Assembly: GCF_004010195.1 (NCBI RefSeq)
Contig: NC_057719.1
Span: 16,573,532 to 16,637,531, forward strand
Source of the DNA: Chiloscyllium plagiosum
Lineage: Eukaryota
Reading direction: 5' to 3'
Length of the DNA: 64,000 nt
Shown here piece by piece: positions 3,105-57,022 of this stretch (its first letter is position 1; each line of letters begins with the position of its first letter). A model generated the notes under the pieces. It did no database searches, had not been told where the DNA came from, and saw only the letters and a list, made by a program, of their open reading frames with translations. The position numbers and the translations under genes were made by a program.

Positions 3105-3190
3105 CCTCAGGCAACTTATAGACAAAGTCCTAACAACTGAAAAGGTAGTCTTGACTCTAGTCCATGAGGAGTTATACATCCATTTTTAAG

Positions 3191-3345
3191 ATGTGGAGGA
3201 GCCAGAGTTGGACTGGAGTGGACAAATTTATAAATCACACAACACCAGGATATAGTCCAACATATTTATTTGGAAGCAGTAGCTTTTGGACCACTCCAAA
3301 TAAACCTGTTGAACTATAACCTGGTGTTGTGTGATTTTTAACTTT
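3191..3345. mobile_element. Fold-back PLE family B mini-insertion
   Basis: Inverted arms AAATCACACAACACCAGG...TTTATTTGGA / TCCAAATAAA...CCTGGTGTTGTGTGATTT. Tail on the left arm. Imperfect 13-bp TSD at 3178-3190 / 3346-3358 (11/13). Confidence 0.8.
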
Positions 3346-5149
3346 ATCCTTTATTAAGTTTTTGTTTTGCAGATTTATGTTCTCAATACCAAGTTGAAAA
3401 TAAGCTTTGATTGATTTTTGCATTACAGTTGCTCTGCTGTAACGTGCGTTTCATCAGTACAACTTGGCCATAAACCGATTGATGAATTGTTTGGATAGTA
3501 CAAACTTTCCACTGAATGAGTACAGCAATTTTCTATTAGCGATCTTCTACAGTGTGATTTTCTATAGCACAAGGTTACAGAGGAACACAACTGTCATTTT
3601 ATAGCAGAATGACCTAATGTGCATTTTTACTTGGCACATTTGCCATTTTGTCAATTCAAGAGAATATGCTCCCTCTTTTGTTTCATTGTGTCAACTTTTG
3701 TTCATGCAACAGGAAGACTCAGAGGCTACTGCCCATAAAGTTTTGTCTGTGCAATTTTATAATATCTATTGATTGTGGTGTCTGGCAGAAGCAACTATCA
3801 TGGATTTCCTGTGGCTGCTCACTATATTATTCTTGCTTAATCAATAAAATGTTTGCAGAAAATTCCACAATAATTCCTGTTGATTCACTCATTGAGATCA
3901 GACATAACATAATCCCCTTAAACATTAGTTATTATTAACAATTGATATTATTGGCAGTAAATCCTTTGGGTCTGTGATAAATAGTAATATTTTTGTTGTG
4001 TGTTTACATGTCTCAGGAGAAAGACTGAACTGATACAGCCGGAGTTGTAAATTGATAAATACATTTCAGGTTGCAGGGTTATGAAACCTTAAATCATCAG
4101 CATATATCCGACAGTATGTAAACTTGTGAATTTAGTGTCCTTACTTTATTACAGCTTACATTTATCTTTAACTTTTAAAATGTTTGTTGAAATTCTGCCT
4201 TAGTTGTGTTCTGGTAGCACAGGGCCTGAGTAATACACTAAGTGAGCCATTGACTTTTTTTTTAGCTTTGGTACTAAGGTTCAGGTCCAGGTTGAAATAG
4301 TGGTTACTGATATCTTTGTCTCCTTTTAGGAAATGATCATCTTGTCTTTAATATTTGTCCAATGTTTAGTGTGTAGCCAAAGCCTCCCTGAATTTGACAT
4401 TAGCATGACCATCTCAATCAGACAGTCTTTAAGGATAGCTGAAAGATGAGGAATGCTCATTTAAGGGTTCGACTAGAGCAGAGATCGAGGGAGCTTTACT
4501 TCTTGCTGTCCTGAATGTTTCTTTCCTGGGAATTGATGGATACTGAGGCTGTGTGTAAAGTTCCCAGCATCAACATCCCTCACTGAGTGCAGCATTTTGC
4601 AAAGCAAGTTTGTCCTGTTATTTCAGGAATTCTGGCTTCTCAGTCAAATTGCCATTGAGTGATCATACCCTAGACAAGAACAGTAGCTCCCAGCTAACAT
4701 TGACAGGAATCATCGATGCTCAGATCATAAAACAGTCCTCGAGGTAATCCTGACATTCCTGATGGTATAGTAAATCCAGCTCGTCACTGAGTCTCACAGG
4801 TTGTTGAAACACCTCCTGGTTGATGCTGCGTACAGGCAGCCGTTGACTGTGGATGTAAACAAAGTGTTGTGTGGATGTTGGTCTTCACTGTGATGACACT
4901 CTCCCAACCCGTGGTGGCATGTGACCACTAACGAACCTTTGGGTGTAAAGTAACCAATTGGATGAGATACAAGGCTGAGGAATCAACTGCAAACAAGAGT
5001 TTATGGCTTTGGAAGGAGAGGAGACACAAACTGCTTCAAAAGAATATTAATTTGAACCACAGTAAAACACGTCCACTACCTCTTGTGAACTTTGAGCACT
5101 TAGCATATCCCTGAAACTACTTGGTGACATTACTGAATCCTGTCATTTC

Positions 5150-5400
5150 AAAGCCCAGGAGCAGGCCATGCAGCCTTTCCAGCTGCTTCCAATTTCCAAG
5201 TGACTGATCTTTCTTTATCTTTGTTCCTTTTACCTGACTTAACTCAATATTTTCTAAACTACTACCCACCAGAAATTTCTCAATTTGTGTCTCAAACGTT
5301 TCAATTAACAGCATCCACAGCCTTTGCAGGAGAGTGCTACGCGTTGCCTTCTGTGTACTAATGTGTTTCGTGGCTGCTCTCATGAATGGCCATACTCCAA
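5150..5400 (-). mobile_element. Degenerate CR1 3' end
   Basis: GGAGCAGGCCATGCAGCC...ATCCACAGCCTTTGCAGGAGAG resembles other CR1 3' ends in the window. Confidence 0.55.
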
Positions 5401-5746
5401 TTCAAAAATTGGCCTGCTCTTCCACGTAAAATCTGCGTTTACTTGAGAAACTCGACAAGGACCAAATCCAGGCAGAATGCAGGGAGCTGCTCTTAAACCA
5501 GCTGAGTCAACTTGGGTCGAGTGTGTAACAGTGCTGCTTCATACGTTGTTTACAAGAATGTACATGTAGAACCACTATTTCTGTTACTCGCTTGTGGGAA
5601 TCTAACTGATCTGTTTCAAAGATGGGACACCCTGTTGGTTTGTGACATTTCCTACATGACACCAAATCATCCTGCTGTCAGCCTTCCAAAGTGAGTGAAA
5701 ATTAATTGAAGAGTGACGATGAGTGTAGGTTAATGGGACATATTAC

Positions 5747-5819
5747 AGCTGGCTAGGTCAGGTGCATTGTATACGAGATTCTGAAAGTCCAAGGTGTGGG
5801 TTTGAGCCCCGTGTTAAAC
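5747..5819 (+). pseudogene. Highly degenerate tRNA-Lys-like sequence or SINE head
   Basis: GCTGGCTAGGTCAG (A-box-like) ... GAGATTCT ... GTGGGTTTGAGCCCC (B-box-like), spaced as in tRNA-Lys. Confidence 0.3.
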
Positions 5820-5859
5820 TCCTGTTATTTGAGGAGCTGCTGTGATGTAGTGGTAGTAT

Positions 5860-6077
5860 GTTGAAACTTTATTGCTGGAACAGCACAGCAGGTCAGGCAG
5901 CATCCAGGGAACAGGAGATTCGACGTTTCGGACACAGGCCCTTCTTCATTCCTGAAGAAGGGCCTGTGCCCGAAACGTCGAATCTCCTGTTCCCTGGATG
6001 CTGCCTGACCTGCTGTGCTGTTCCAGCAATAAAGTTTCAACTTTGATCTCCAGCATCTGCAGACCTCACTTTCTCCT
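5860..6077. mobile_element. Fold-back PLE family A mini-insertion
   Basis: 89-bp inverted arms 5860-5948 and 5953-6041 (1 mismatch), 36-nt tail 6042-6077, exact 14-bp TSD TGTAGTGGTAGTAT at 5846-5859 / 6078-6091. Confidence 0.92.
5948..5983 (+). ncRNA. Minimal hammerhead ribozyme motif (family A)
   Basis: Identical to 162-197. Confidence 0.75.
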
Positions 6078-7781
6078 TGTAGTGGTAGTATCCCAGCCTT
6101 GGGCCCAGAAGGTCTGGATTCAAGTCCTACCTTCTATGAAGGTGTGTCTGAACAGGCTGATTTAATTTTATTATTAAACAGGGCACCTTGGAAGAAATGT
6201 TGGGTGTTTTATATGAAAGAAAAGGAAATTGACATATGTGTGAATTGAATGTTCCTTCCTCTCTTTCATCTTTCCCACCTTGTTCATTCTTATTACTTTT
6301 TCTGCCAGAAAAATCACAAATTGGTCTCAGAATTTAATCTCCTCGTGGCCGAAAGAGTTCACATTGTGCTAGATTTACAATGAAACATCAAGGCCAATTG
6401 GATACAATATTGGTTATGTATTGTAGGAACCACCTGCTCCCAGTTAAAGGCAGTATTCAGTGCATTATTGCCTGCTCAGCTTTACTTTTCAGATGCCACA
6501 CGTCTCTCAGAGAAAGAAGTAGATTATTTAGGACTGAGATGAGATGTTTCTTCAGTCAGATGATGGTCAATCTTTGGAATTTCTAACTTGGAGTACTTTG
6601 GAGACTCAGCCATGGTGTATATTCAAATCTGATCCTGGATATTAAAGTTATCAAGGGCAGCATTCCCTCTAAGCCGTGCAATCTCTGGGAAGCTCCATTC
6701 ATGCAGGTCAGTGAATCATTATGTAGTTTGTGCTTGTGGAAGTTGCTACCAAGCGGATCTTAGAGCTCTAAGCAGCAGCAGGAATTGGAGAAAAGTGGTT
6801 CAATGGGTATGGGTTTCAAGCTGGATCAATATCTGCCAGGAAAGAAATGACATTTGGAGTGGAATCTCCCTTCAAATAAACATTGAAAACGGCTATGGCA
6901 AATGGTGCTTTGCAAAGCATTACCACGTGTTCTGATTGAACTGTATGTGTTTCCTATTTTCTTTCAGATTTCCAGCTTTGCAGCTTTTTGTCTGTTATTT
7001 GAAAAAGAGTTGGGACATTGTGCGCATTAAATGTTTTCTGTGAAACATTGACTTCCAGGCCTGCATGGATTTTCAGACAGAGTTGGTGCCCTGCTTAAAT
7101 TGACATTGAACCCTGTCTCTGGAAGTTGCAATAAATATGCAAACAAAATAATGGCACTGTGAAAAGAAGACCAATCCTTTTTCTTAACAGGCAGGAGGAG
7201 TGATTCATCCACTTGTTGGTTTGTGTAAGGGGAGTGGTAACTCTTCAGGGAATTCTGGAAGCTTATAGCCATTTCCTCACGGTTTTTGATGAACAAATAC
7301 TATCTGATGACTCTTTTATATCTGAGGGCTGAAGTTGAAGTTAAAGGATGTGATCCCCCAGTGTTTTCAATTACTAGGCTGCCAAAACTCATCTCTGACT
7401 GAGTAACTGAAAATAGAAACACGCTTTGGCGTTTCTCAGTTCCCTGGGAGCCCATAGAATTGATGGCACCAATTCCAGAGAGAGAAAAAATTGAAGTGAT
7501 GGCTTCAAAATCTGATCAAAAAAATCATTGTTGTTTTAGCATGACTTTATCCCTCTTGTTACATCCTCCAATCAATGACCTTTAAAAAAGTCTTGTGCTA
7601 CACTCATACCCCTCACACCCGACAAGGGCAGTTTATTCAGCTTCTTGAGATTATATGGAAATGGATTTGACAAGGGTGTGGGCTTAGACATATCTGACTA
7701 AGACTTGCATCATGAGTAGATATGGTGGAGTTGCTGAGTTTTTTTTCTGCTCATTGTCATGTAGTCATCTGTTTGAAGCCC

Positions 7782-7782
<1 letters not shown>

Positions 7783-7821
<39 letters not shown>

Positions 7822-8043
7822 GTGTCTCCCTCTCTGCCTCTCTCACTTTCTTTCTATCTCTCTATCTGTTTATCCAGCTGTCTATATCTCTTTCTCTCTC
7901 TCTCTCTCCCCCCCTCTCTGTCTCCCTCTCTGCCTCTCTCACTTTCTTTCTATCTCTCTATCTGTTTATCCAGCTGTCTATATCTCTTTCTCTCTCTCTC
8001 TCTCCCCCCCTCTCTCCCCTCTCTCTCTCTCTCTCTCTCTCTC
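7783..8043. repeat. (CT)n-rich microsatellite containing a ~96-bp tandem duplication
   Basis: Unit TGTCTCCCTCTCTGCCTCTCTCACTTTC...CCAGCTGTCTATATCTC starts at 7823 and again at 7919. Confidence 0.95.
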
Positions 8044-8169
8044 ATGCTCTCGCACACTATTTTTTCCCCAAGCTTATCATGGCGATGATACAAGTTATTT
8101 ACTCCCTCCTTCCAGGATCTAAACAGTAACTTGTGTAGTGTCTTTACTGTAATTAAACACAGAGGGATA

Positions 8170-11600: not shown

Positions 11601-11741
11601 GACTCAATGGGCTAAAGACCGTAATGATTTCCTGTTTACTCTTAACTCACCCTAAAGCTAATGCCAGTTGCGAGGCTGAAACTCTTTGTGATCGACGAGC
11701 CCATCTGCTTTGTATGACTTTCCTGCAAAACAGCAGCATAT

Positions 11742-14225: not shown

Positions 14226-14431
14226 ACAAAGTTAAAAATCACACAATACCAGGTTATAGTTCAACAGGTTTAAGTGGAAGCACTAACTGTCAGAGTGCTG
14301 TTCCTTATCACCACCTGATGAAGGAGCAGCGCTCTGAAAGCTAGTGCTTCCAATTAAACCTGTTGGACTATAACCTGGTATTGTGTGATTTTTAACTTTA
14401 TGCACCCCAGTCCAACATCGACATCTCCAAA
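14226..14431. mobile_element. Fold-back PLE family B mini-insertion
   Basis: Inverted arms meet near 14310. Right arm has the tail CCCCAGTCCAACATCGACATCTCCAAA. 14-bp TSD TCATYAGGAGAGAT at 14212-14225 / 14432-14445. Confidence 0.88.
14312..14346 (+). ncRNA. Minimal hammerhead ribozyme motif (family B)
   Basis: cac-CTGATGA-A-GGAGC(agc)GCTCT-GAAA-GC-TA^gtg. Helix I CAC/GTG, palindromic AGCT. Confidence 0.7.
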
Positions 14432-15797
14432 TCATTAGGAGAGATGACGGTGAACTAGATGAGGCTATAAGATACAACGTGTCGTCATTGGAATTGCTGA
14501 AACATTGAGCTTTTCTTTATTAAAACAAAACAAGTGAAAAGTTCATGAAGTTTAACATTTGATGGAAATCTGAAATTGAAGCACAAATTTCTGGAAATAC
14601 TGAGCAGGACTGGCTGCTTCTGCAGAGAGTGAAACCGAGGTTTTGTTTACGGACACGAATGTGGCTGAGGGCCCAGAAGTGAATGAGACAAGGATTGGTG
14701 GTCTTATCCTTTTGACTGTCCTCATTATCAAAGGGTCATGATTCAGTAATGCCAAAGTATCACAACCGGACAAGTTGAAGCAACAGGTTGCAACAGCCAC
14801 CTCTCCCTTTGTGAAGTATAACGTTTTAACTAGCTCGGTGTTATCAAGCACCACATTCTAACTAGCTGGGCTAACCTACCAGGATAGTTCGGGGGCGAGA
14901 GAAATTCACTGGCTCTATTTAGGTGGGCAGAATGGAAAGAAAAGATCCACAGAGGGGAATGCTGGAGAATCCTTGAAGGTGATTGACAAAGCCAACAACA
15001 ATCCTGAGAAAATAACAAGGCTTTCTATTCATGTGGACCAGATCCATAGATTCACTTCAGTGTTTTAGTATTTTGCTTCCAAAACCACAAAGATGCACAC
15101 CTTTTGATAATTAAGGTTCTTTAACATTATCTGTTTCTCTCCCTCCTTTACCAGTGGGACATGTGCTGAGCCTCTCAGTAGGGCGAAACCACAGTCATGC
15201 AGCAATTAGACGGCACCGGTGTGGAACATAAGGCTGTACTTATCCTGGTTTTTAAACACTGTGCTCAGCACAATAGCCTATTCCCAGTTAACTGCTCTCT
15301 AATCCAGTGTTGTTTTGGAGGATTAAGATCATGCAAACACCCAACCACAGGCATTCAAATCCCCAGGCTGAATGCAGTGGAAACCCTGATGGGGCATGTC
15401 TCGAGTGAATCCCACATCATCAGGGGACAGGCTGATCCAATTGCTCTGATTTACTTGTTTACTGAACAGACACAAACTCTCCAAATTTGAAATGACAGCG
15501 CATTGAAATTTTAAGTTGCCATTAATGCGGAAAGGAGGGAGATTTTAGCACCTGTCTCGGCCAGCGTCCATCTTCGATTCCTGACTGGATGTTGGATTCA
15601 GAGACCAATGGGCCTGACTTACTTTTGCATTGTTCCGTTGCTGGCCAAGGGAGCCTGCTGCCTTGATTCCTAATTATAATTATGATTGGATTTCAAAAGT
15701 ATTTGTTTGGCTGTAAGGGGCTTCAGGACATGCTGAAGTTGTCAAATCACCCTATGCTCAACTTTCATCAGCCCCCCCCAACCTTGTTGCTGATACC

Positions 15798-17070: not shown

Positions 17071-18100
17071 TAAAAGGTTTTCCCCTAACCTGTAAAACTC
17101 CTGCTTGAACCATGTTTTGACGTTGCTTTCAAAGTCATCCTTCCTGACCTGTGCTTCTGGCTTGATGCCCAATTCCTTACGTCTATTTGTGAGGCATGTC
17201 TCTGTAAATGGGGGATGCTGCATAAAAAGCAAGTTGGCTGTTTCTAGCACTGTCTTTAAATTGCTGCAGTTATTACACAGACCCAGGAGTTTAACAGCAC
17301 CTCAAAGGGTGCAAGGCACCCTGCTGAGAATTCATGCCCAGAGAGCCGATAAAGAACACAGAGCTCCCAATGCTTTAAATCTGAAATGGAGACACAGATT
17401 GCTTGTAATATGGGTACTGGCCTGTACACAATTACAAGGAGAAAACAAATGTTTCAGGAAGGAGCCTTTCTGCAGCTTGGCTCCTGAGGTATTAACATGT
17501 TTTAACTCTTTTCAAATTCTCACTGGCTTGCTGAGTATTTCCAACATTTTCTACCTTATTTCTGATTCATAATTCACTGAATTCTCTCCATGTGGAGCAG
17601 CTTTGTTCGAGCAGGCAAGCTGTGCATGGTTTAGTTGCAAGAGCAGAACATCTCTTGAAGTGGTATTGAACTGCAAAACATTTTCACCCGTCTCTCGTTA
17701 TCTTTCTTGCGACATGGCGGTTTACATGATTTCTCAATTTCCCCCCCCTCTAAAGTCAAGTAAATACCCAACCCTGGTACAGTAATAGGACTTTAGCAGG
17801 CAATATCTTGGTATTGGCTCAGCTGTTCAGGGATCAGTCCACAGTAACTCAAGACAAAGGGTCAGACGTGAGCCTGGGTAAATATCTATCTTGTAATTCC
17901 ACCAGGGTGAAGTGTAATGGTTTTTGAACTCAAGCTATTACTTCCATAAGTCTTTGATTTCAGGATTATGACATCTCCTTGCAGCTTGTAAGGGAGGGTG
18001 TAGAAGGGGATTTGACGCCTGCATTCAGAGGCTAAACCCATAGCTTGCAGTAGCCAGATGGATAAGTAGTTAGAACGCAGGGCTCGAAGAATAAAAAGTC

Positions 18101-18319
18101 GAGTGTGGTGCTGGAAAAGCACAGCAGGTCAGGCAGCATTCAAGGAGCAGGAGAGTTGACGTTTCGGACAAAAGCCCTTCATCAGGCTTCATCTTTTCGG
18201 ATCTCGGGCTTTTGCCCGAAACGTCGATTTTCCTGCTCCTCGGATGCTGACTGACCTGCTGTGCTTTTCCAGCACCACACTCTACTCTAATCTCCAGCAT
18301 TTGCAGTCCTCACTTTTGC
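18101..18319. mobile_element. Fold-back PLE family A mini-insertion
   Basis: Inverted arms 18101-18186 / 18206-18282, 37-nt tail, exact 18-bp flanking duplication CTCGAAGAATAAAAAGTC at 18083-18100 / 18320-18337. Hammerhead core on the minus strand at 18158-18185. Confidence 0.9.
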
Positions 18320-18712
18320 CTCGAAGAATAAAAAGTCTCCAGCTAAACCTTGTGCATAGTGACCGTGGTTCAGTATGTGTTGGTCAACTCTTGCTGCATG
18401 TTTCATGCATTTTGTCCAAAGTTGAATCTCTAAAATCTGCCATAATGAAGGACCTTCCATCTCCTGTAGAAATTGATGAAAAAATTGTGTGTTGCCAAGC
18501 TATACTGTACAAACAATGCCTGAGATATAGGTGTTATAATTTGTACTATAATTATAATCCAGGTATTAGTTTTATGTTTTATTCATGAAGAAGAGAAAAT
18601 AGTTTTTCCAAAACGATACAATGAGATTGCACAAAGTTGTATGCTGGAAAGCAACTGAGATGGCACTTAAAAAGAATATATATTAGTGAGGGTCCATTAA
18701 AAACTGAAAACC

Positions 18713-18882
18713 AAAATACTCTGGATGCTGGAAATCAGAAACAAACTCATATTTCTGGAAAAACACAGCAGGTCTGGCAGCATCTGTGGAGAGAAAGCAG
18801 AGTTAAAATTTCGGGTCCAGTGACCCTTCTCCAATTCTGACAGACCTACTGAGTTATTCTTGCAAATTCTGATTTTGTTTCT
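18713..18882. mobile_element. Fold-back PLE family D mini-insertion, older
   Basis: Tail-bearing left arm (GATGCTGGAAATCAGAAACAAA...CAGCAGGTCTGGCAGCATCTGTGG...) plus a short inverted arm CAGACCTACTGAG...TTTTGTTTCT. Possible TSD ACTGAAAACC/ACTGGAAGCC. Confidence 0.7.
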
Positions 18883-19441: not shown

Positions 19442-19451
19442 TCCAGAGGGA

Positions 19452-26250: not shown

Positions 26251-26926
26251 TATTTGGAGTTTTGAAGCCCTTCACTAAAACATACCTTAAACTTCCTAGG
26301 CTGTGAAAGGCTGGTTAGAGAGAGAATTGCCATGGTAGAGTTGGCAGTGGTGGCATATCTTCTTATACCTAAAATTCTCCTCCCAACCTGGCTAATATCT
26401 TTTGAATTCTTACTGTATACCTTCCATTGCTTGTATGCTCTTCATGCTCCCCTCTTGAACTAATCTCTACTGAGCATTACCATATAGGATTACATAAAGG
26501 CCGACTGTGAATACACATTAATTTAGCTGATCAAGGTGAGAGGAGCAGGGACATGCAAAGACTGCTGACTCTAGATAGCAGAAGCAGGAATTTCACACAA
26601 GACAATTATTTAAAACTTTCCCACTTTGAGGCAGGAGAGGCAGATGATAAACTCTGCGCATAAAGACGACTAAAACTGCTTCTGAAAATGCCACTTGTAT
26701 TTATCTCTGTGAGTGAACTCATAAACAGGTTGACAACTAAATGGGAGGAATAGTGTTACATTGAGGGATCATGTATCAATATGTAACCTGAGAAAAGGGA
26801 ACACTGACGTATACTCTGTTGGGCATAATTAAAAGAACCGCAAAGTTTATGACTGAATGGACAGCCTACATGTGGTATATCAGCCAATTATGGGGAATCT
26901 CTGTTATAATGCCACAGATTAAATCA

Positions 26927-27140
26927 TGATGTGAAGGTGCCGGTATTGGACTGGGTGGACAAAGTTAAAAATCACACAACACCAAGTTATAGTCCAACAG
27001 GTTTATTTGGGAATACTAGCTCTTTTCCTATAAATTCTGTGTCTATGATCCTGCCCCACTGATGAAGGAGCAGTGCTCCGATAGCTAGTGCTTCCAAATA
27101 AACCTGTTGGACTATAACCTGGTGTTGTGTTATTTTTAAC
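26927..27140. mobile_element. Fold-back PLE family B mini-insertion
   Basis: Tail-bearing left arm. The right arm has a hammerhead with GAAA mutated to GATA (27059-27090). Imperfect TSD CAGATTAAATCA / CAAATCAAATCA. Confidence 0.85.
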
Positions 27141-27995
27141 AAATCAAATCAGCTGAGCATTGTGGCCCATCCAGGTGCAGCCATAAAGTTTGTTTAGGAC
27201 AAACAGAGGAAAACTCTTGGGCATTATGTTGATGAATGCTGCACTCCATTCACCAAGGTAAAGAGAATGGATTAAGACCAGAGCAGAAGGTGAGGCTCAA
27301 TCCTTGTGGGTGTAATTTACACAGTGGGAGTCTGTCACTGCCACACCTCAATAGTGCTGGTCCCAGTGTCTACCTAACATTAGTGGACTTGGGCCAAGAT
27401 GTCATTGGTGAGGAAGGAGTTACACAACCCAGTGAACAGTTCCAAAGGTGAAACAAGGATTGAGATCTTACACTTATTTATTACAGTGGATTGTGGCAGC
27501 AATCTTATCAGCTGAAAGAGACAACATTTCAGTGGTGTGTCGCCAGGTCAACATTTTATAGCACCTTATATATTTGGAATATTCTTATCCGGCTTTGGTA
27601 TCTGACATGTAATACAGCATTTTCTACTGAACACAGTGTGTCTGATGTTAAACCAACAGACAAACAACAACACATTCCAGCACGTTACCTTTCAAGCCAT
27701 GTACCATCCTGATTTGGATCTATATCATGGAGGAGGTGGCTTGCCACCACCATCACCACCTCAAGGGGAATCAAGGAAGGGCAAGAAATGTTGGCCTCGT
27801 CAGCATTGTCCACACCCCGTGAAAGAATAAAAGTGTGCCAGTCACATTGGAAATACGTAATCAACATATTGCAGTGGAGTGAGTTTTTGTATTGACTTTC
27901 TGTTCTGTAAGGAACACGATGGTGCTGATTTTGATCTGTGTTGTTGAGGTGCTCAGTAGTTAACTCTTTTCAGAATAAATGCCTCTTGTCGCAGT

Positions 27996-33928: not shown

Positions 33929-33931
33929 TTG

Positions 33932-37108: not shown

Positions 37109-39371
37109 TTGCAGGAAGGGAAAAAGTATTATCTGGGATTGTTAAACAGTGTTCTTTAAATCTTCCTCACCTAACTGATTTGTGCAGACTTGTATTGGGT
37201 AAATCTTGGAAATAATTCTAATGTTTAGACAGCGTACAAGTTATCTTTTAATTTCCAGAAGAAATGTTTCAATGTTGGGAATATTGACACTTAGCAAATA
37301 CCGGAAGCAGAAGTGAATCTGAACTCCCATTGTAGCTCAACTAAAAGCTAACATCAGAGAAAGCAGCCTGACAACACCTGGGAGATGGCAAGGTTGAAAA
37401 ATTCTACTGGTGTCTGCATGGAAGATTGACTGCACATCTACGCTGGTGTCACTAAGATGCCCTCCAAGGAAATGAAGAAGTAACAGCGAATAAAGACCAT
37501 TATTGAAGAGTATTGGTTGCATATGCGTTAAACCATATGAGGGCAGTTCCAACACTTAATTTAGTATAGAAAGTATTGGAATAGAACATCAGAAATAAAA
37601 CCAAATAGGGAACATATCTTGAGTTCTGAATTCTCAAGAAAACAATATCATGAATATATGAACAAAGAGCAGAAGGAGGCCATTCAGCCCTTTAGGTAGG
37701 CTCTGTCAGTTAACAAAATCGTGGCTGATCTGATTCTAACAAATCCACATTTCTTCCTGTACCTGCTAGTCTTTCACCCTTTTGCTTAATGATAATCTAG
37801 TCACCTGTACCTTAAAAATATTTGAATATTCTGCTTTCACTATCTCTTCAGAAAGGGTTTCAAAGACCCACAGCCCTCTAAGACAATTAGCCATATTGAT
37901 GTTTTAAATGTGGAATATCTGATTTTTAAACAATGACCCCCTCATAGATTCTCCTTAAGAATGAACACTCTCTCCATACCTATCCTGTCAAGATCCCTCA
38001 GGATCCAAATATTTCAATCATGTTGTCTGTTAACCTTCTGAACTCCAGAGAATACTAACCTAGCCTGTCCAACCTCTCTTAATTAGACAGCCTGCTCATT
38101 CCTGGTATTATTCTGGTGAACCTTTTTTTGAATTGCTTCCAATGCATTCTGGTCCTTCCTTAAATATGCTGACCAATAAGGTTTATAATACTTGACTTGT
38201 GTTTTCACCAATTCCCTGTAAATCGAAGCATAGCTTCTCAATTTTTGCATTCAATTCCCTCCATGATAAACGATAACATTCTACTAACCTTCCAAGTTAT
38301 TTGCTGTACTGACATATTAACCTTTTTGTGATTCATGCATTAGGACAGCAAGATCCCTCTGCATCTAAGAGCTCTACAATCTCTGACCATTTGATAGTAT
38401 GCTTCTTTATAATTCTTCCCATCAAAAAAGACTGAGTTCACATTTTCCCATATTTATACTCCATTTATTAGATCTTTGCCCATGCACTTAACCTATCTAT
38501 ATCCCTCACCTTCTTAATGCCCTTTTTACAACTGAATTTCCTGTCTAACCTTTGTGAGCAGCAATTTCGACCACCATGCATTCTACTCCTTCATGCAAGT
38601 TATTTATATAAATTGTAAACACTTGAAGCCCAACCCCACTTGCCAACCTGAATAGACCCATTTATTCCAACTCTTTGCTTCCTGTTAGCCAGTCAATCTT
38701 CAATTCATGTAAACATTTTACACCCTACAGCATATTTTCTCTAATAGCATTTGATGTGGTAGTTCAGCAAATGTTGTTGCAAATTAGAAATCCAAATACA
38801 GTATATTCACAGATTCCCCTTCATCCATCACATGTGATACCTCCTCAAAGAAATTGATTTGTCAAACATGATTTTCCTTTTTATTAAGCCATGTTGGCTC
38901 TCTCTGATTACCTTGAACTTATCAGTGTCCTGCCATAACTTCTTGAATGATGATTTCTAAATAGTTAAAAATCACACAACACCAGGTTATAGTCCAACAG
39001 GTTTAATTGGAAGCACTAGCTTTCGGAACACCGCCCCTTCAGGTGATTGTGGAGGACACAATTGTAAGGCACAGAACTTATAGCAAAAGTTTACAGTGTG
39101 ATATAACTGAAATTATACACTGAAAAATACCTTGATTGTCTGTTGAGTCTTTCATCTGTTCGAATACCATGATAGTTTCACTTCTTTCATGTGTAAATCA
39201 CAAAACCTTTTTTTAAAAGTTGCATTCTCAGGTTAGCTGTAACAATTGGTGTTAGCTCAACTAGCTAACACCAATTGTTACAGCTAACCTGAGAATGCAA
39301 CTTTTAAAAACAGGTTTTGTGATTTACACATGAAAGAAGTGATTCTGTTCACCGAGCTGGGAATTTGTGTT

Positions 39372-39411
39372 GCAGACGTTTCGTCCCCTGTCTAGGTGAC
39401 ATCCTCAGTGC
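39372..39411 (-). ncRNA. Minimal hammerhead ribozyme motif (family C, left arm)
   Basis: Reverse complement is identical to 40614-40653. Confidence 0.75.
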
Positions 39412-39559
39412 TTGGGAGCTCCTTTGAAGCGCTTCTGTGATGTTTCCTCTGGCATTTGTAGTGGTTTGAATCTGCCGCTTCTGGTTGTCAGTTCCAGCTG
39501 TACACTACAGTGGTCGGTATATTGGGTCCAGGTCGATGTGCTTATTGATTGAATCTGTG

Positions 39560-40102
39560 GATGAGTGCCATGCCTCCTGGTTGTTCTCTTTTTGGCTTGT
39601 CCTATAATAGTAGTGTTGTCCCAGTCGAATTCATGTTGCTTGTCATCTGCGTGTGTGGCCAATAAGGATAGCTGGTTGTGTCATTTCGTGGTTAGTTGGT
39701 GTTCATGAATGCAGATCGTTAGCTGTCTTCCTGTTTGTCCTATGTAGTGTTTTGTGCAGTCCTTGCATGGGATTTTGTACACTACATTGGTTTTGCTCAT
39801 GCTGGGTTTCAGGTCCTTCGTTCTGGTGAGTTGTTGTCTGAGAGTGGCTGTTGGTTTGTGTGCTGTTATGAGTCCTAGTGGTCGCAGTAGTCTGGCTGTC
39901 AGTTCGGAAATGCTCTTGATGTATGGTAGTGTGGCTAGTCCTTTGGGTATGGCTAGTCCTCATTCCGTTCTCTTTCCCTTAGGCATCTGTTGATGAAATT
40001 GCGCGGGTATCCGTTTTTGGCGAATACATTGTATAGGTGTTCTTCTTCCTCTTTTTGCAGTTCTGGTGTACTGCAGTGTGTTGTGGCCCTTTTGAATAGT
40101 GT
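39560..40102 (-). pseudogene. PLE polyprotein fragment: RT thumb/linker plus GIY-YIG endonuclease
   Basis: TLFKRATTHCSTPELQKEEEEHLYNVFAKNGYPRNFINRCL ... LPYIKSISELTARLLRPLG ... NVVYKIPCKDCTKHYIGQTGR ... HEFDWDNTTII, with frameshifts. Confidence 0.88.
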
Positions 40103-40520
40103 CAAGAGCATTTCTGAACTGACAGCCAGACTACCACTAGGACTCATAACAGCACACAAACCAACAGCCACTCTCAGACAACAACTCACCAGAACGAAGG
40201 ACCTGAAACCCTTCATGAGCAAAACCAATGTAGTGTACAAAATCCCATGCAAGGGCTTCACAAAACACTACACAGGACAAACAGGAAGACAGCTAACGAT
40301 CCACATCCATGAACACCAACTAGCCACGAAACGACACAACCAGCTATCCTTAGTAGCCACACACGCAGATGACAAGCAACATGAATTCGACTGGGACAAC
40401 ACTACCATTATAGGACAAGCCAAACAGAGAACAGCCAGGGAATTCCTGAGGCATGGCACTCATCCACAGATTCAATCAATAAGCACATCGACCTGGACCC
40501 AATATACCGACCACTGCAAC
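40102..40520 (+). pseudogene. PLE GIY-YIG endonuclease fragment
   Basis: Within ORF 39990-40763: NVVYKIPCKGFTKHYTGQTGRQLTIHIHEH...LVATHADDKQHEFDWDNTTIIGQAKQRTAREFL. Confidence 0.9.
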
Positions 40521-40613
40521 GGACAGCTGGAACTGACAACCGGAAGCGGCAGATTCAAACCACTACAAATGCCAGAGGAAAGATCACAGAAGCACTTCAC
40601 AGGAGGCTCCCAA

Positions 40614-40653
40614 GCACTGAGGATGTCACCTAGACAGGGGACGAAACGTCTGC
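40614..40653 (+). ncRNA. Minimal hammerhead ribozyme motif (family C, right arm)
   Basis: gca-CTGAGGA-T-GTC(a)CCT(agac)AGG(g)GAC-GAAA-CG-TC^tgc. Confidence 0.75.
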
Positions 40654-42664
40654 AACACAAATTCCCAGCTCGGCGAACAGAACCACAACAACGAGCACCC
40701 GAGCTACAAATCTTCTCACAAACTATGAAAGAAGTGAAACTATCATGGTATTTGAACAGATGAAAGACTCAACAGACAATCAAGGTATTTTTCAATGTAT
40801 AATTTCAGTTACATCACACTGTAAACTTCTGCTATAAATTCTATGCCTTACATTGTGTCCTCCACAATCATCTGATGATGGAGCGGTGCTCTGAAAGCTA
40901 GTGCTTCCAATTAAACCTATTGGACTATAACCTGGTGTTGAGTGATTTTTAATTTTGTACACTCCAGTCCAACACCGGCATCTCCAAATCATGATTTCTA
41001 AATATTCCTTATGAGAGATACTAAGCTGACTGCCCTATGGTTTCCAGCTTTATGTGTCTCTTTTTGAATAGAGGAGTTATATTTTGCTACATTCCAATCT
41101 AATGGGACCTTCACAAAATCAAGTGAGTTTGGGAAAATTAAAATCAAAGCACCAACTCTCTGTAGTCTCTTAAGGTCTTAGAGGGAATTCCACTGGAAAC
41201 AGAGTCTGTTTCCATGCTATACATCTCTATGACCAGTGTAGGCCTCAGTAAATAGCCTTCACACACGCAGATGGACAAAAATTAACAAATCTCACAGCTT
41301 TTCTCTGTTATAGCAGGCCCCAGTGCCCTATTATTCCAACACATTGTCTCCATTTCAGTGTAAAGGGACAAAATTTGAATGTGGACTTTGTTGATGAGTT
41401 GCAGAAAATTACCTTTGGTTGTGATTTTGTCACAGGTTCATTTATTGTAATGCTCTTTTAGCCTTTAAGTGAAGTTTGCATTATAGCTGATGTATAGATC
41501 AAGAAAGACATTGTGAATGCACACTTTCAAGGGCAGTATTTTGACTGGATGTGCATTTTAGAGATTAAGCTGCATGCCTGTGTTCCCAAAACTGCCCCCC
41601 CCCCCAGTGAAGCACCCAGAAGGAGATAAAACTTATAAACCTAGCCCCAGTCTCTCTCTTTGCTTCATTTTTATCCATTGCAAAATCCTTCATTAGACAA
41701 TTGGATTTCTGGGCCGCATGGGAACTTGTCCCTCTGTTTAAAGCCAAGTTCCCAAGGAATCTGCACCTGGAGAACTTATGTTTGCCCACTCTCTTTCAAG
41801 GGCATCACACTTGCCAGCATCCAAGACAATTAATTAGGTACATGTTGGTCAAAGCAAGGTTTGAAGATCCTCAATGACGTTAGCTATCATGTTGGATTCA
41901 GCAGCAACACCTTGTCTTTTTTGTAGTCCTGATAGAATTATGAAACAAAACTTGGCACCAATCAATGTAGGGAACATCACTAAATCTTTGTTAATGTGGT
42001 AGATTTTAAGCATAATTTTGAAGGAGAAAAAAGGGAGCAAGCGAGTTCAAGTCGGTGAGGGAGGTAATTCCAAAGCTCGGAGCCTGACTAGCTGTGACCA
42101 CCAATACAGGAGGCTAGCTAAAATAGTGCTTCTGCCCACAGTGTTGGTAATCTTCCTGCTCTTAATCATATGAGGACCGCCACTATCCTTTTCTATTTGT
42201 TTGCAAATACTGGAGGAAGAACCACAGTAACTTCAAATTCTATTAATATGATGGATAGGTGAGACCCTCGTTCGCAGTGACATTGAATATTATAGAGCTG
42301 TCTTGGTCTGGTATGAGATTTTTGAGCTGCACAGAGCATTTCAAATGCACATTGTAAGTACCTTGATTCCAAAGGGACCTCACTTTGCCTCGCTGAGCCT
42401 CCAAAGGAATTAATTTGTTCTGATCTGAGATTGGAATGATGTATTGAAGATATGACCATACCGCAGCGACCTTCAATCGTTTTAACTTTACCTTTATTCG
42501 AACTTTTATTTAAATTTTACAAATAAAAATTTTAACTATTTGCAATTTAATGAAGTAGCTGTGAAGCAAGAGTGAGGCAAGACACAGATTATGGTGTCAT
42601 AGGAAGTCAAAATGTTTGGTTTGTGATTTGTATAATTTATTTGATCTATTTTCTCTCTCCCAGT

Positions 42665-45429: not shown

Positions 45430-45995
45430 AAAAGAGAAAAGAAATTACTGTGCTTTTTGTAAGCACCGGACGCTTCACAGCACTTTCCAGCCATTGTAAT
45501 ATATTTGAAATGTAGTCACAGTTTAATGTGGGAAATGCAACAATCAATTTGTACATAGTAATCTTCCACAAACAGCATACGGTAATGATAAGATCGTTGA
45601 GGCATTCAAGAGGGCTTTGGATGGTTATTTGGATAGAAGTGGTTGGTAGGGAAATGGGGAAAAGGCAGGAGATTGGCACTATGTAATAGATCTGATACAG
45701 GCAGAATGGGCCTGTGATTCTAAAGTACTGTGTTTTTTGTGTGATGGTGGTTGAGGGTTGACATTGGCATAATGCTGAGGATGACTCTTCTGCTCTTCAA
45801 CAAAATAATATGATTGGGATCTTTTGCTTAAGAGGGAGCTTAATATCTTCTCCAAAAGACAACGCATCTATTATGTAGCACTCTGTCAGGACCGTGCTGT
45901 GTTGACCAGGATTTTTGATCCCCGGAGCTGGAGTGCACCTTGCAATTGGAACATTATGACTCTGAGGTGAGAGTGCTTCTGGCTAAACCACAGTC
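45430..45995 (-). mobile_element. DeuSINE interrupted by a short CR1 3' end (~45593-45722, +)
   Basis: CCACAAACAGCA...[GGCATTCAAGAGGGCTTTGGATG...GATTCTA]...GGTTGAGGG...TCTGCTCTTC...TGACTCTGAGGTGAGAGTGCT. Confidence 0.65.
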
Positions 45996-46294
45996 ATCAA
46001 CTGATACAGGCAGAATGGGCCTGTGATTCTAAAGTACTGTGTTTTTTGTGTGATGGTGGTTGAGGGTTGACATTGGCATAATGCTGAGGATGACTCTTCT
46101 GCTCTTCAACAAAATAATATGATTGGGATCTTTTGCTTAAGAGGGAGCTTAATATCTTCTCCAAAAGACAACGCATCTATTATGTAGCACTCTGTCAGGA
46201 CCGTGCTGTGTTGACCAGGAGCTGGAGTGCACCTTGCAATTGGAACATTATGACTCTGAGGTGAGAGTGCTTCTGGCTAAACCACAGTCATCAA
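45692..46294. repeat. Tandem duplication, 309 bp + 294 bp
   Basis: 45692-46000 and 46001-46294 appear identical except for 15 bp (TTTTTGATCCCCGGA) missing from copy 2. Confidence 0.95.
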
Positions 46295-47366: not shown

Positions 47367-47574
47367 GACAGTATAGTGAGGAAAGCCACTTGCACTGTTC
47401 CTTATGCTCCAATAAGTGAGGTCCAGCCAGGTATGGTGTGATCTTGGAAAAGCGCAGCAGGTCAGGCAGCATCTAGGGAACAGGAGAATCAACGTTTCGA
47501 CAGTATAGTGAGGAAAGCCACTTGCACTGTTCCTTATGCTCCAATAAGTGAGGTCCAGCCAGGTATGGTGTGAT
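47367..47574. repeat. 76-bp direct duplication flanking a 56-bp PLE family A fragment
   Basis: 47367-47442 equals 47499-47574. Insert 47443-47498 is CTTGGAAAAGCGCAGCAGGTCAGGCAGCATCTAGGGAACAGGAGAATCAACGTTTC. Confidence 0.92.
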
Positions 47575-47949
47575 TTTGCTTGACTGGACAGTAAACCTGT
47601 CTTTGTTTAAACACTAAGTGTCTCTTCTCGCCCACACAGTCAGACAGCATTTTTCTTCCTCTCTCCAAATAATTTGAAAGCAATTCATTAAGAAATGTAT
47701 TGATAGACAAAGAAAAAATGCACAATTCCTTTGCAGTGCCCACAATGACTTTTGCGAGCTCTGGAGTTTGTGATCCCAGCACATTCATATTTAACTTCTG
47801 GAAGCTTTGAGATAATCCTGGAGGATTGGCAATGCTTATGGAGGTACTATATCTTGTGGAAGGTGAAGGACTTTGCAAACTCAACATATATTTAAAATCC
47901 ATTGGCAAATGTTGTGCAGTTTAATTGGTGAAAGTGGGAAGATGGCATT

Positions 47950-53216: not shown

Positions 53217-54061
53217 GAGATAGAGTCATATAGCATGGAAACAAACCCTTCGGTCCAACCCGTCCATGCCGACCAGATATCCCAACCCAATCTAGTCCCA
53301 CCTGCCAGCACCCAGCCCATATCCCTCCAAACCCTTCCTATTCATATACCCATCCAAATGCCTCTTAAATGTTGCAATTGTACCAGCCGCCACCACATCC
53401 TCTGGTAGCTCNNNNNNNNNNNNNNNNNNNNNNNNNNNNNNNNNNNNNNNNNNNNNNNNNNNNNNNNNNNNNNNNNNNNNNNNNNNNNNNNNNNNNNNNN
53501 NNNNNNNNNNNNNNNNNNNNNNNNNNNNNNNNNNNNNNNNNNNNNNNNNNNNNNNNNNNNNNNNNNNNNNNNNNNNNNNNNNNNNNNNNNNNNNNNNNTG
53601 CAACTCCACTTTCAAGGAGCTATGAACCTGCACTCCTAGGTGACTTTGTTCAGCAACACTCTCTAGGACCTTACCATTAAGCGTATAAGTCCTGCTAAGA
53701 TTTGCTTTCCCAAAATGCAGCGCCTTGCATTTATCTGAATTAAACTCCATCTGCCACTTCTCAGCCCAATGGCCCATCTGGTCTAGATCCTGTTGTAATC
53801 TGAGGTAACCCTCTTCACTGTCCACTACACCTCCAATTTTAATGTCATCTGCAAACTTACTAACTATACCTCTTATGCTCGCATCCAAATCATTTATGTA
53901 AATGACAAAAAAGTGGAGGGCCCAGCACTGATCCTTGTGGCACTCCACTGGTCACAGGCCTCCAGTCTGAAAAACAACCCTCCACCACCACCCTCTGTCT
54001 TTTACCTTTGAGCCAGTTCTGTATTCAAATGGCTAGTTCTCCCTGTGTTCCATGAGATCTA
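53217..54061 (-). mobile_element. CR1/HER1 LINE 3' fragment inserted antisense in the host CR1
   Basis: Minus [28 protein letters not shown]...ELPEDVVAAG; 3'UTR GGACCGAAGGGTTTGTTTCCATGCTATATGACTCTATCT. Confidence 0.9.
53412..53598. other. Assembly gap (187 N)
   Basis: Run of N. Confidence 1.
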
Positions 54062-54345
54062 ACAAAAAGCCCTTTGGCCCAACAAGTCCACACCCGACCC
54101 TCTGAAGAGTAACCCACCCAGAACCATTCCTCTCTGTCTAATGCACCTAACACTATGGGCAATTTAGAACGGCTAATTCACCTGACCTGCACATCTTTGG
54201 GCTGCGGGAGGAAACTGGAGCACCCGGAGGAAACTCACGCAGACACGGGGGGAACGTGTAAACTTCACACAGACAGTCACCAGAGGCTGGAATCGAACCT
54301 GGGACCCTGGTGCTGTGAGGCAGCAGTGCTAGCCACTGAGCCACC
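54062..54345 (-). mobile_element. HE1-type V-SINE lacking its normal 3' tail
   Basis: Full head and core. Ends at GGGCCAAAGGGCTTTTTGTT and abuts the 5' end of the antisense LINE fragment. Confidence 0.9.
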
Positions 54346-55887
54346 TATCTCAGGTTGCTGAGGGAGGCGAGAGAGGAAACAGCTGGGGCCCTGACTTTGT
54401 AGCATTCTTAAACACAGGTGAAGTGCCAGAGGACTGGAGGGTTGCTAATATTGTCCCCCTGTACAAGAAGGGCAGTAGGGATATTCCAGGTAACTTCTGA
54501 CCAGTGAGCCTGACGTCATTGGTGGGCAAGTTGCTGGAGAAGGTACTGAGGGATAAAATCTATTTATATTTGGAAAGGAATGGGTTTATTAGTGATAGGC
54601 AACATGGTTTTGTGTGAGGGAGATAGTTCCTTGCCAACTTAATAGAGTTCTTTGAGGAAGTGACCAAGTTAATTGATAAAGGAAGGGCTGTAGCTGTCAT
54701 ATACATGGATTTCAGTAAAGCATTTGATAAGGTTCCCTGGTAAACTAATGGAAAAAGTGAAGTCACATGGTGTGCAGGGTGTTCGAGCTAGGTGGATAAA
54801 GAATTGGTTGAGCAACAGGAGACAAACAGTAGTAGTTGAAGGGCATTTCTCGAAATGGAGAAAGGTGACCAGTGATGTTCCACCGGGATAAGTGCTGGGA
54901 CCACTGTTGTTTGTACTATGCATAAATGATCTGGAAGAGGGCACTTTTGGTCTGATCAGATGATACGAAGATTGGTGGAGTAGCAGAAAGCATAGGGGAC
55001 TGTCAACTAATACAGGAGAATATAGATAGATTGGAGAGTTGAGCGGAAAAGTAGCAAATGGAGTTCAATCCAGCCAAATGTGAGGTGATGCATTTTGTGA
55101 AGTCTAATTCTAGACCCAACTATACTGTAAACAGAAGATGCCTTGGGTAAAGTTGATGAGCAGAGAGATCTGGGAGTTCAGGTCATTGTACCCTGAAGGT
55201 GGCTGCACAGGTGCATAGAGTGTCTGCTTGCCTTCATTGGACGATGTACTGAGTATAAGAGCTGGCAAGTCATGTTAAAATTATAAAAGACTTTGGTTCG
55301 GCCGCATTTAGAACATTGTGTACAGTTCTGGTCGCCACATTATCAAAAGGATGTGGATGCTTTGGAGAGGGTGCAGAGAAGGTTTATGAGGATGTTGCCT
55401 GGTATGGAAGGTGCTAGCTATGAAGAGAGGTTGAGTAGGTTAGGTTTATTTTCGTTAGAAAAAAGGAGATTGGGCCGGGGGGAACCCGATCGAGGTCTAA
55501 ACATTCATGAAGGGTATAGACAGGTTGGATAGAGATCAGCTTTTTCCCCAGAGTGAGGGATTCAATAACGAGAAGTCACGCGTTCAAGGTGAGAGGTGAA
55601 AAGTTTAAGGGGGATACACGTGGAAAATACTTTACACAGAGGGTGGTAGGTGCCTAGAACGCGTTGCCAGCAGAGGTAGTAGAGGCAGGCATGGTAGATT
55701 CATTTATGATGCATCTGGACAGATGCATGAGTAGGTGGGGAGCAGAGGGATAATTAGGAATTGGGCGATAGGTTTAGACAGTGGATTTGAATCAGCACAC
55801 GCTTGGAGGGCCGAAGGGCCTGTTCCTGGGCTGTAAGTTTGTTTGTTCTTTCTTTGTTCTTTGTCTGGCAGCATCTATGGAGAGAAA

Positions 55888-55975
55888 AATGCGGTGCTGG
55901 AAAAACACAGCAGGCCAGGCAGCATTTGAGGAGCAGGAGAATCGACGTTTCGGACATAAGCCCTTCACTTTCTCC
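55888..55975. mobile_element. Extreme fold-back PLE family A mini-insertion inside PLE D
   Basis: 80-bp minus arm plus only TCACTTTCTCC of the tail. 14-bp TSD TCTRTGGAGAGAAA at 55874-55887 / 55976-55989. Confidence 0.82.
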
Positions 55976-57022
55976 TCTGTGGAGAGAAAGCAGAGTTAAC
56001 GTTTTGGCTCCAGTGACCCTTCATTAGAGCTGATTGTAACTAGGAAATGGTTGGTTTATACGCTGAAGATGAGTGGGAGAGGGGGAAGGAGCAAACGTTA
56101 GCTGGAGATGGAGCCCAAAGAGAAAGAACAGTTGAGCAGATTATGGAATGGGGAAAGATAAGTCTGGCAGATTGAAAAGCTGCCAAAGGGGACCATTAGT
56201 GGCTGGCAATAGGTTGGTTGTGGCAGCAGCCGATGTGATGACAAGGCCTGGTGTGTGGGGGTAGGGGTAAAGAAATGGCCCTAACATTATTGAACTTGAT
56301 ACTGAGTCCTGAAGGCTGCAGAGTTCCAAGGTGGAAAATGAGGTGCTGTTCTTACAGCTTGCGCTGAGCTTCACTGGAGCACTGCAGCAAGCCTGAGACA
56401 GAGCTGTTGGCCAGGGAACAGGGTGGTGTTTTGAAGTGGCAGGCAAATGGAAGCTCATGACAATTTTTGTACACAGAACATCAGTGTTCTGAAAAGCAGT
56501 CACCCAGTTTGTGTTTCATCACCCCAGTGTCGAGGAGACTATATTGTGAGCAGCAAATATGTAGGATAGATTGAGTGAAGTGCAGGTAAATCACTACATC
56601 ACCTGGAAGGTGTACCTGAAGTCATGAGTACTGAGGAGGGAGGAAGTAAATTGACAGGTGTTTCCACTTTCTGCAATTCCACGGGCGGGTGTCATGGTGG
56701 TGTGAGGAGGTCTTAGGAGTGGAGGAGGAGTGGACCAAGGTGTCCTGGAGGGAATGGTCCCTGTAAAAGGATGACAAGAGTGGACAGGGGAATATGTGTC
56801 TGGTGGAGATACCGCATTGGAGGAAGTAGAAGTGGTAGCTTTCAATCCTTAGGATGTGGACGTGGTGGGGTGGTAAGTGAGGACCTGGGAGACCACATCA
56901 CTTTTGTGAAAGGGTCAAAGTGTGGGAGAGGGGTTGGACCCTGATGAGGTTCCAGTCAACCACCATAGTGGATATCCTCTGTTAGGGAAGAAGATGGAAA
57001 CTTTCAAGCCCCCTTTAGAATC

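What the first reader, a model, noticed from the sequence alone, without database searches (positions are those of the whole stretch)
3178..55989. Recurrent fold-back ribozyme-bearing mini-insertions with a fixed one-sided tail and mostly 12-14 bp TSDs
Seen: nine insertions from four families (3191, 5860, 14226, 18101, 18713, 26927, 38964, 39343, 55888) share one architecture: TSD, inverted arm without tail, junction, direct arm plus a 30-42 nt tail (reduced to 11 nt at 55888), TSD. Junction positions vary widely, but the tailless arm starts at nearly the same offset within each family. Established: inverted pseudo-LTRs with a short tail are known for Penelope. Inference: both target strands are primed, at two fixed but different RNA positions. 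The short forms (about 90-220 bp) are essentially non-coding ribozyme hairpins. They may be truncation products or a separate non-autonomous class that mimics MITEs. This is my best candidate for an undescribed system here.
Basis: partly seen in the sequence, partly recalled or inferred. Interest (0 to 1): 0.7.

Follow-up and report, generated by a model that had tools for sequence, protein, structure and literature searches.

The report
Truncated fold-back Penelope retroelement insertions
The hairpin-shaped inserts are real, but they are the cut-short ends of Penelope-like jumping genes, laid down in the 'inverted copy plus one-sided tail' pattern already described for this class, not a separate mobile element.

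Summary
The architecture is real: 8 of 9 inserts have target-site duplications above chance (18713 does not), and a related species shows the empty site for 5860. All nine are 3' ends of Penelope-like elements (PLEs): inverted truncated copy, direct copy, tail on one side only. This layout is published (PMC8557442, PMC3846280). A MITE-like class is not supported: all nine junctions differ, and in raw reads over a family present in about 10^5 copies no listed junction between the arms of the youngest insert had more than 3 reads. A few short junctions do recur at roughly 6-33 copies in related species. 'Ribozyme-bearing' overstates: 4 of 9 keep a whole hammerhead motif, and the hairpin masks it in both inserts folded. 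One feature I did not find in print: 10 of 27 arms stop at the hammerhead's front edge, which explains the near-constant 207-220 bp length. The scan reported this pattern before on other pieces of this genome.

The parts
3178..3358 (-). Family A fold-back: TSD 3178-3190, tailed arm 3191-3294, tailless arm 3295-3345, TSD 3346-3358; no hammerhead core; old (arms 88%)
   Evidence: right boundary also present in organism B contig 10
5846..6091 (+). Family B fold-back: TSD 5846-5859, tailless inverted arm 5860-5948, direct arm 5946-6077 (tail 6042-6077), TSD 6078-6091; 3-nt overlap at the junction; complete hammerhead core at 5952-5979; young (arms 88/89)
   Evidence: empty site in organism C contig 23
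14212..14445 (+). Family A fold-back: inverted arm 14226-about 14309, direct arm about 14312-14432 with 31-nt tail; hammerhead core 14315-14343; TSD 13/14
18083..18337 (+). Family B (second subfamily) fold-back: inverted arm 18101-18186, 19-nt filler, direct arm 18206-about 18320; raw TSD 18 bp
18713..18882 (-). Family C fold-back, decayed (arms 81%); TSD not above chance
26914..27151 (-). Family A fold-back: tailed arm 26927-27021, tailless arm 27022-27140 (the longer arm); TSD 11/13
38950..41004 (+). Family A insertion with 294- and 335-bp arms, exact 14-bp TSD, interrupted by the family D element
39330..40737 (+). Family D insertion nested in the direct arm of 38964: inverted arm 39343-40103, direct arm 40102-40724, 42-nt tail, exact 13-bp TSD; both arms carry GIY-YIG-type coding sequence; ATG at 40623 at the start of hammerhead stem II
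   Evidence: the host's other arm shows the target once
55874..55989 (+). Family B insert in a family C pLTR: 80-nt tailless inverted arm plus only 11-12 nt of tail; TSD 13/14
   Evidence: three paralogous host copies show the target once
1..291 (+). One-armed family B copy, 132/132 identical to the direct arm of 5860, running upstream past the window start
63228..63724 (+). One-armed family B copy with a PLE-type endonuclease C-terminal reading frame upstream of the hammerhead
   Evidence: by eye; no Pfam hit
55863..57756 (-). Long broken family C copy: RT-thumb-like and endonuclease C-terminal fragments upstream of the pLTR; host of the 55888 insert

Best explanation
These are dead-on-arrival, 5'-truncated insertions of four endonuclease-bearing Penelope-like element (PLE) families. 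Step 1 (shown in vitro for another PLE; inferred here): the RT-endonuclease, probably a dimer, nicks both target strands. Step 2 (shown here by TSDs and empty sites): the nicks are staggered by about 12-14 nt. Step 3 (two internal start sites shown in vitro; ends seen here): each nick primes reverse transcription inside the RNA, one at the downstream site and one 31-42 nt upstream, so only one arm gets the tail. Step 4 (inferred): both cDNAs run towards the RNA 5' end over the same stretch and usually stop early, most often across the hammerhead and at its front edge. Step 5 (inferred from 1-3-nt overlaps and a 19-nt filler): the two cDNA ends are joined by end-joining repair. The inverted arm is therefore made anew at each insertion. 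The short copies lack the RNA beyond the tail, so they are unlikely to be templates again.
For: TSDs above chance in 8 of 9. True empty site for 5860: a 2,807-nt contig of organism C aligns to 3588-5845 and 6078-6400 with adjacent record positions, skipping the insert plus one TSD. Single target copy in the host's mirror arm for 39343 (114/116 match) and in three paralogs for 55888. Arm identity tracks TSD identity (Spearman 0.77, p=0.027, n=8); the youngest insert is the one absent from organism C and the 88% one is shared with organism B. Exactly one tail in 9 of 9 (p=0.002 if each strand chose freely). The tail end is fixed genome-wide: 21,477 raw reads leave the reference at 6077 into unrelated flanks (agreement 0.33), roughly 10^5 ends. 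Family D has PLE-type coding sequence (Atlas 0.98, top cluster 10% GIY-YIG) and the same start-codon-at-stem-II layout as the lizard element. Tail ends lie 74-98 nt past the hammerhead cut against 82-89 by my count in the lizard element. Both arms of 14226 share a letter absent from the six other family A arms. All 9 junctions differ. The lizard protein needs RNA to +172, about 55-60 nt past its start site at +111-118, which inserted copies do not carry.
Against: No Pfam family hit any of the protein fragments scanned; family A shows no coding sequence within the 335 nt available, so its parent could itself be non-autonomous. Short junctions recur in related species: 5905-6000 at about 33 and 18 single-copy depths in organisms C and B, three others at 6-14. 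One search showed 15 joints and withheld 903, and 1,432 of 165,128 raw reads lay wholly on the stretch, so the copy number of 5860's own junction is not bounded tightly. In vitro the two strands did not differ in start site, so the strict one-tail rule is not explained by that work. The +172 requirement was measured for another family. Only 1 of 9 inserts has a true orthologous empty site, from one contig; organism B's contigs break at that locus.
Confidence: 0.85

Rival explanations
1. Refinement of the best explanation: the short arms are not random truncations but run-off copies. The main template RNA begins 0-10 nt ahead of the hammerhead core (a transcription start or processed 5' end), and internal initiation about 100-130 nt downstream copies only that leader. 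Two such run-offs give a hairpin of near-constant length.
For: 10 of 27 arms in the window end at -9..+8 from the first core base, and 10 of the 19 that reach that zone stop in it; binomial p=2e-4 against the stop rate just downstream and 6e-10 against the rate upstream. For the nine inserts alone, whose ends are fixed by the junction, 8 of 13 (p=2e-4). Few arms end at the cut site. Four inserts are 207-220 bp.
Against: The zone was chosen after seeing the data and arms of one insert are not independent. Self-complementary letters around the core can favour joining there (3-nt overlap at 5860), and a protein-bound hammerhead could stall RT. At least 16,434 raw reads continue upstream of 5942/5946. 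In Drosophila Penelope the start site lies well upstream, ahead of an intron. No RNA data were examined.
Confidence: 0.35
2. A separate non-autonomous, MITE-mimicking class: a transcribed fold-back is copied again by the PLE protein. Because the first cDNA could cross the old junction and anneal to the second cDNA along the whole arm, the junction would be regenerated exactly.
For: Similar lengths of four inserts; a few junctions at 6-33 single-copy depths in related species, one of them (5905-6000) in three contig runs. Non-autonomous PLE derivatives exist (PMC8557442 passages; bioRxiv 2026.07.22.740005).
Against: 9 of 9 junctions distinct; best listed family B joint has 3 of 165,128 raw reads, about a dozen loci among about 10^5. 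Tens of repeats are expected when 10^5 arms are joined over about 10^4 position pairs with microhomology bias (inference). The fold-back RNA is one long hairpin that hides the hammerhead and the upstream start site and lacks the downstream RNA the lizard protein needs. Hairpin joints in contigs can also be library artefacts.
Confidence: 0.07
3. The inverted arm arises by self-priming (snap-back) or on an antisense template, as proposed for rotifer Penelopes, and not by priming from the second target strand.
For: Arkhipova et al. 2013 read junction palindromes as self-priming (PMC3846280 passages). 38964 has near-equal arms with a 5-nt loop, and 5860 a 4-nt loop.
Against: A snap-back does not explain why the outer end of the inverted arm is fixed 31-42 nt short of the other end. 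The tailless arm is the longer one at 26927 and 39343, and 55888 has an 80-nt inverted arm with almost no direct arm to copy. Both-strand extension is shown in vitro.
Confidence: 0.08
4. The short forms were inserted longer and collapsed later by deletion of the palindrome centre.
For: Long palindromes are unstable (general knowledge); two of the ten family A/B skips listed have 3- and 5-nt overlaps.
Against: The youngest insert (5860, arms 88/89, absent from organism C) is already short, while long ones with 95% arms persist. It may apply to some copies only.
Confidence: 0.1

Closest known systems
Insertion units of canonical endonuclease-positive PLEs (Penelope/Poseidon, Neptune): pLTR, adjacent inverted 5'-truncated copy, 30-40-bp tail (Craig et al. 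2021, PMC8557442; Arkhipova et al. 2013, PMC3846280; passages read)
   Same: Inverted truncated copy next to a direct copy, tail at one end only, TSD, hammerhead in the pLTR, strong 5' truncation.
   Different: TSDs here are mostly 12-14 bp against 8-10 bp in the rotifer examples read; many copies are cut down to 90-220 bp; copy number is about 10^5 for one family.
Poseidon of Anolis carolinensis, PAc (Frangieh et al. 2024, PMC11167929; parts 1-3 of 4 read; figures not seen)
   Same: Both strands nicked and extended; two internal RT start sites; tail equals the stretch between them; AT-rich targets (TSDs 69% AT against 57% for the window); start codon at stem II in family D.
   Different: In vitro the strands showed no difference in start site, whereas all nine inserts have one tail and one tailless end. 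The text read does not derive inverted products or TSD length from the mechanism.
Minimal type I hammerheads of metazoan PLEs (Cervera and de la Pena 2014, PMC4209133; passages read)
   Same: Core with an unpaired base before stem II, short stem I, palindromic positions in place of helix III; thousands of solo copies per genome.
   Different: Here often truncated, and masked by the antisense arm; pile-up of 5' ends at the front of the core was not in the passages read.
L1 twin and dual priming (Meyer et al. 2010, PMC2837659; passages read)
   Same: Two cDNAs primed from opposite target strands and joined, giving an inversion inside a TSD.
   Different: Twin priming copies non-overlapping parts and starts at a poly(A) tail; here both arms copy the same stretch from two fixed internal sites, as the normal outcome.
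Non-LTR retrozymes (bioRxiv 10.64898/2026.07.22.740005; part 1 of 5 and passages read)
   Same: Short, non-coding, hammerhead-bearing, PLE-derived; reported in the one cartilaginous fish sampled.
   Different: Retrozymes are head-to-tail tandem arrays with two or more whole ribozymes; these are head-to-head single inserts.

Membership tests
Endonuclease-positive PLE insertion | C-terminal GIY-YIG endonuclease coding sequence upstream of the pLTR | tested here: met
   Family D: open frames with the motif in both arms, Atlas 0.98 to a cluster with 10% GIY-YIG members; Pfam gave no hit
Endonuclease-positive PLE insertion | Same coding link for families A, B and C | tested here: inconclusive
   B and C: PLE-like C-terminal frames by eye; C fragment Atlas 0.95 unnamed, 0.93 to a cluster with 23% PF26215; A: no frame within 335 nt
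Endonuclease-positive PLE insertion | Minimal type I hammerhead in the pLTR | tested here: met
   4 strict hits in the window, 0 in 30 shuffles; Rfam has no match at gathering or E<=10
Endonuclease-positive PLE insertion | Adjacent inverted 5'-truncated copy | tested here: met
   9 of 9 have an inverted arm; 55888 has almost no direct arm
Endonuclease-positive PLE insertion | 30-40-bp tail at one end only | tested here: met
   31-42 nt in 7 of 9; 11-12 nt at 55888; 24-30 nt at 18713
Endonuclease-positive PLE insertion | Target-site duplication with single-copy empty site | tested here: met
   8 of 9 TSDs above chance; one orthologous empty site; two in-window proxies, a third proxy for 5860 found no paralog
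Endonuclease-positive PLE insertion | RT phylogeny placing each family in Penelope/Poseidon or Neptune | not tested
   No RT core in the window; no genome held
MITE (non-autonomous DNA transposon; definition recalled) | Terminal inverted repeats at both ends | tested here: not met
   One end is always tail sequence outside the inverted repeat
MITE (non-autonomous DNA transposon; definition recalled) | Many copies of uniform length and internal sequence | tested here: not met
   9 distinct junctions; best listed family B joint 3 raw reads; 903 joints not shown
Non-LTR retrozyme | Tandem direct units with two or more complete hammerheads | tested here: not met
   Arms are head to head; at most one complete sense-strand motif per transcript direction
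Active ribozyme | Self-cleavage | not testable with these tools
   Stem I and II pair probabilities are 0 in the fold-back RNAs of 5860 and 14226; stem II is 0.92-0.96 in the 5860 direct arm alone

The most novel reading that the evidence does not exclude
Some short fold-backs are a self-regenerating non-autonomous class: once transcribed, two-strand priming lets the cDNAs anneal along the arm and copy the junction exactly, giving MITE look-alikes that move through RNA; the junctions recurring at tens of copies in related species would be such lineages. A milder and likelier novelty (about 0.35) is that the stubs are run-off copies from an RNA 5' end at the hammerhead's front edge, with each subunit of the dimer tied to one of the two start sites.
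Probability: 0.07. Interest if true: 0.6.

Novelty: new member of a known kind. Interest (0 to 1): 0.25.

Why it matters
As it stands, this is a clean genomic record of a mechanism already shown in vitro. Its value is as material: about 10^5 copies of one family with sharp ends could fix the nick stagger (12-14 bp), test whether the two strands must use different start sites, and show whether the template RNA begins at the hammerhead. These are open steps of the PLE cycle. It also warns annotators that such hairpins can be mistaken for MITEs or microRNA precursors (the centre of 38964 scores against four Rfam microRNA entries below threshold).

Tried and rejected
Whole-genome census: no genome is held for this window, so junction counts rest on the window and one read-laying run. 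Rfam finds no hammerhead; its microRNA hits at 39209-39311 are below gathering score and reflect the hairpin. Pfam: 0 families for 5 fragment scans. Folding the isolated hammerhead motifs gave z-scores of -1.1 to +0.5, no evidence either way. An in-window paralog for the 5860 host was not found. Overall distances among family A arms do not separate same-insert from different-insert pairs; only single shared letters are informative. The 169-read opposite-strand joint at 3295 was not taken as one shared junction: it pools fold-backs with different loops. TSD at 18713 rejected. Literature searches listed no paper on a fold-back non-autonomous PLE class, on shark pLTRs, or on 5' ends piling at the hammerhead front; I judged most listings by title and abstract start, the library lacks most subscription papers, and Repbase/Dfam were not available. 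The text supplements of PMC11167929 held none of four terms; its figures, which give the second start site, were not visible.
Full report
Setting. No genome is held. Evidence comes from the window, one laying of public runs on 3100-6400 and papers.

Observation. Inverted repeats exist at the named places. Aligning each insert to intact copies in the window gave the arms, tails and junctions listed under parts. TSDs were scored against 1,500 random flank pairs with the same freedom: six inserts have p<=0.003, two p=0.02, and 18713 p=0.16. Several raw TSDs are lengthened by letters shared with the element ends, so 12-14 bp is a fair summary for eight inserts. Seven tails are 31-42 nt; 55888 keeps 11-12 nt and has essentially no direct arm; 18713 is uncertain. 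Two of the nine (38964, 39343) are not small.

Empty sites. In organism C a 2,807-nt contig at single-copy depth covers 3588-5845 and 6078-6400 with adjacent record positions, lacking exactly the 5860 insert and one TSD. A second individual of the window's species has a contig running 17 nt into the insert; organism B's contigs break at the locus and decide nothing. Organism B shares the right boundary of the older 3191 insert. Inside the window, removing 39343 and one TSD restores a 114/116 match to the host's mirror arm, and removing 55888 restores three paralogous host copies. Arm identity and TSD identity rise together (rho 0.77, p=0.027, n=8), as expected if both pairs were identical at insertion.

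Identity. Family D carries GIY-YIG-type coding sequence in both arms and an ATG at the start of hammerhead stem II followed by an open frame through the tail, the layout described for the lizard Poseidon element. Longer one-armed copies link families B and C to PLE-like C-terminal frames (by eye, lead only; Pfam blank). Family A has no coding link in the window. Strict minimal hammerheads occur 4 times against 0 in 30 shuffles.

Ribozyme claim. Four of nine inserts keep a complete motif, only two of them among the seven short forms. In the fold-back RNAs of 5860 and 14226 the hammerhead helices have zero pairing probability. Single minimal hammerheads showed no cleavage in vitro (PMC4209133 passage), and cleavage was not needed for insertion (PMC11167929). 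The motif is a passenger from the pLTR.

Fixed ends. In raw reads (about 4% of one run; unique depth about 0.33 from only about 5 reads, so counts are order-of-magnitude) family B arms reach depths of 23,500 and 47,900, and 21,477 reads leave the reference at 6077 into unrelated sequence: about 10^5 tail ends at one position. Family A contigs with unrelated flanks end at 3343-3346, matching the tailless start, though 3345 is mixed with tail-bearing ends. The tailless end of family B was not resolved because subfamilies diverge at 6028.

Junctions. All nine differ. Among 15 joints shown (903 withheld), the best family B joints have 3 raw reads, about a dozen loci. In contig runs of related species four short junctions stand at 6-33 single-copy depths. 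That is the main result against my reading. It is small beside 10^5 arms and can come from microhomology, centre deletion or library artefacts, but I could not test it further. The copy number of 5860's own junction is not listed, since such reads match the reference; 1,432 reads lay wholly on the stretch. Junctions in the window show short overlaps (3 nt at 5860, about 2 at 39343) or filler (19 nt at 18101, 5 nt at 38964).

Where arms stop. Following a lead from an earlier scan note, I mapped the 5' end of all 27 PLE arms seen: 8 stop more than 8 nt past the first core base, 10 stop at -9..+8, 9 run further upstream. The excess is p=2e-4 against the adjacent downstream rate, also for the nine inserts alone. 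The zone was picked afterwards, offsets of the long arms are approximate, and one-armed ends can be biased by subfamily divergence. Two arms ending there give 207-220 bp, which accounts for the MITE-like lengths of 5860, 14226 and 18101. An RNA 5' end, an RT stall, or joining through self-complementary letters could each cause it.

Mechanism. Shown elsewhere in vitro: both strands nicked and extended, two internal start sites, tail between them, RNA needed to +172. Shown here: stagger, fixed ends, one tail in 9 of 9, both arms from the same subfamily. Inferred: each strand uses a different site; the arms copy the same stretch, which needs strand displacement or two template copies; end-joining closes the gap; the product lacks the downstream RNA and is not remobilised.

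Comparison and verdict. The inverted truncated copy with a one-sided 30-40-bp tail is described as typical of PLEs, with TSD and empty-site examples. The finding is a new set of members of that kind. It fails the MITE and retrozyme tests. Earlier agents reached similar readings on other pieces of this genome; these are unchecked notes and were used as leads only. Interest 0.25.

Noticed in passing
window 47367-47578: A 55-60-nt one-armed family B piece, starting near the tailless site and ending in the hammerhead, sits between two copies of an 80-bp duplication (79/80); the target end resembles the element at the start site. Looks like priming of one strand only, finished by repair.
   Followed up: partly
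   Followed up: no
window 3343-3345 joined to 6077: Family A tailless ends abut family B tail ends in opposite orientation in 21 raw reads at 3345 and 10-30 contigs per run; may be B insertions into the AT-rich end of A, or chance given copy numbers.
   Followed up: no
upstream of window 5942 (loose-end consensus) and 63560-63580: A pyrimidine tract ending in AG lies about 25-30 nt ahead of the family B hammerhead; it resembles a 3' splice site, and in Drosophila Penelope an intron ends at helix I.
   Followed up: no
window 55863-57756: Long broken family C element interrupted by a SINE-like repeat (57023-57330) and by the 55888 insert; three of nine inserts sit in or host other PLEs.
   Followed up: partly
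window 45692-46294: Tandem duplication of about 300 bp at 95% identity.
   Followed up: no
window 3486-3615: Low-copy repeat: raw-read depth 35-100 against about 0.3 for unique DNA, and many contigs from other loci.
   Followed up: no
window within 53292-53951: An assembly gap shows as X in a LINE-like frame; the window holds 187 N in all.
   Followed up: no
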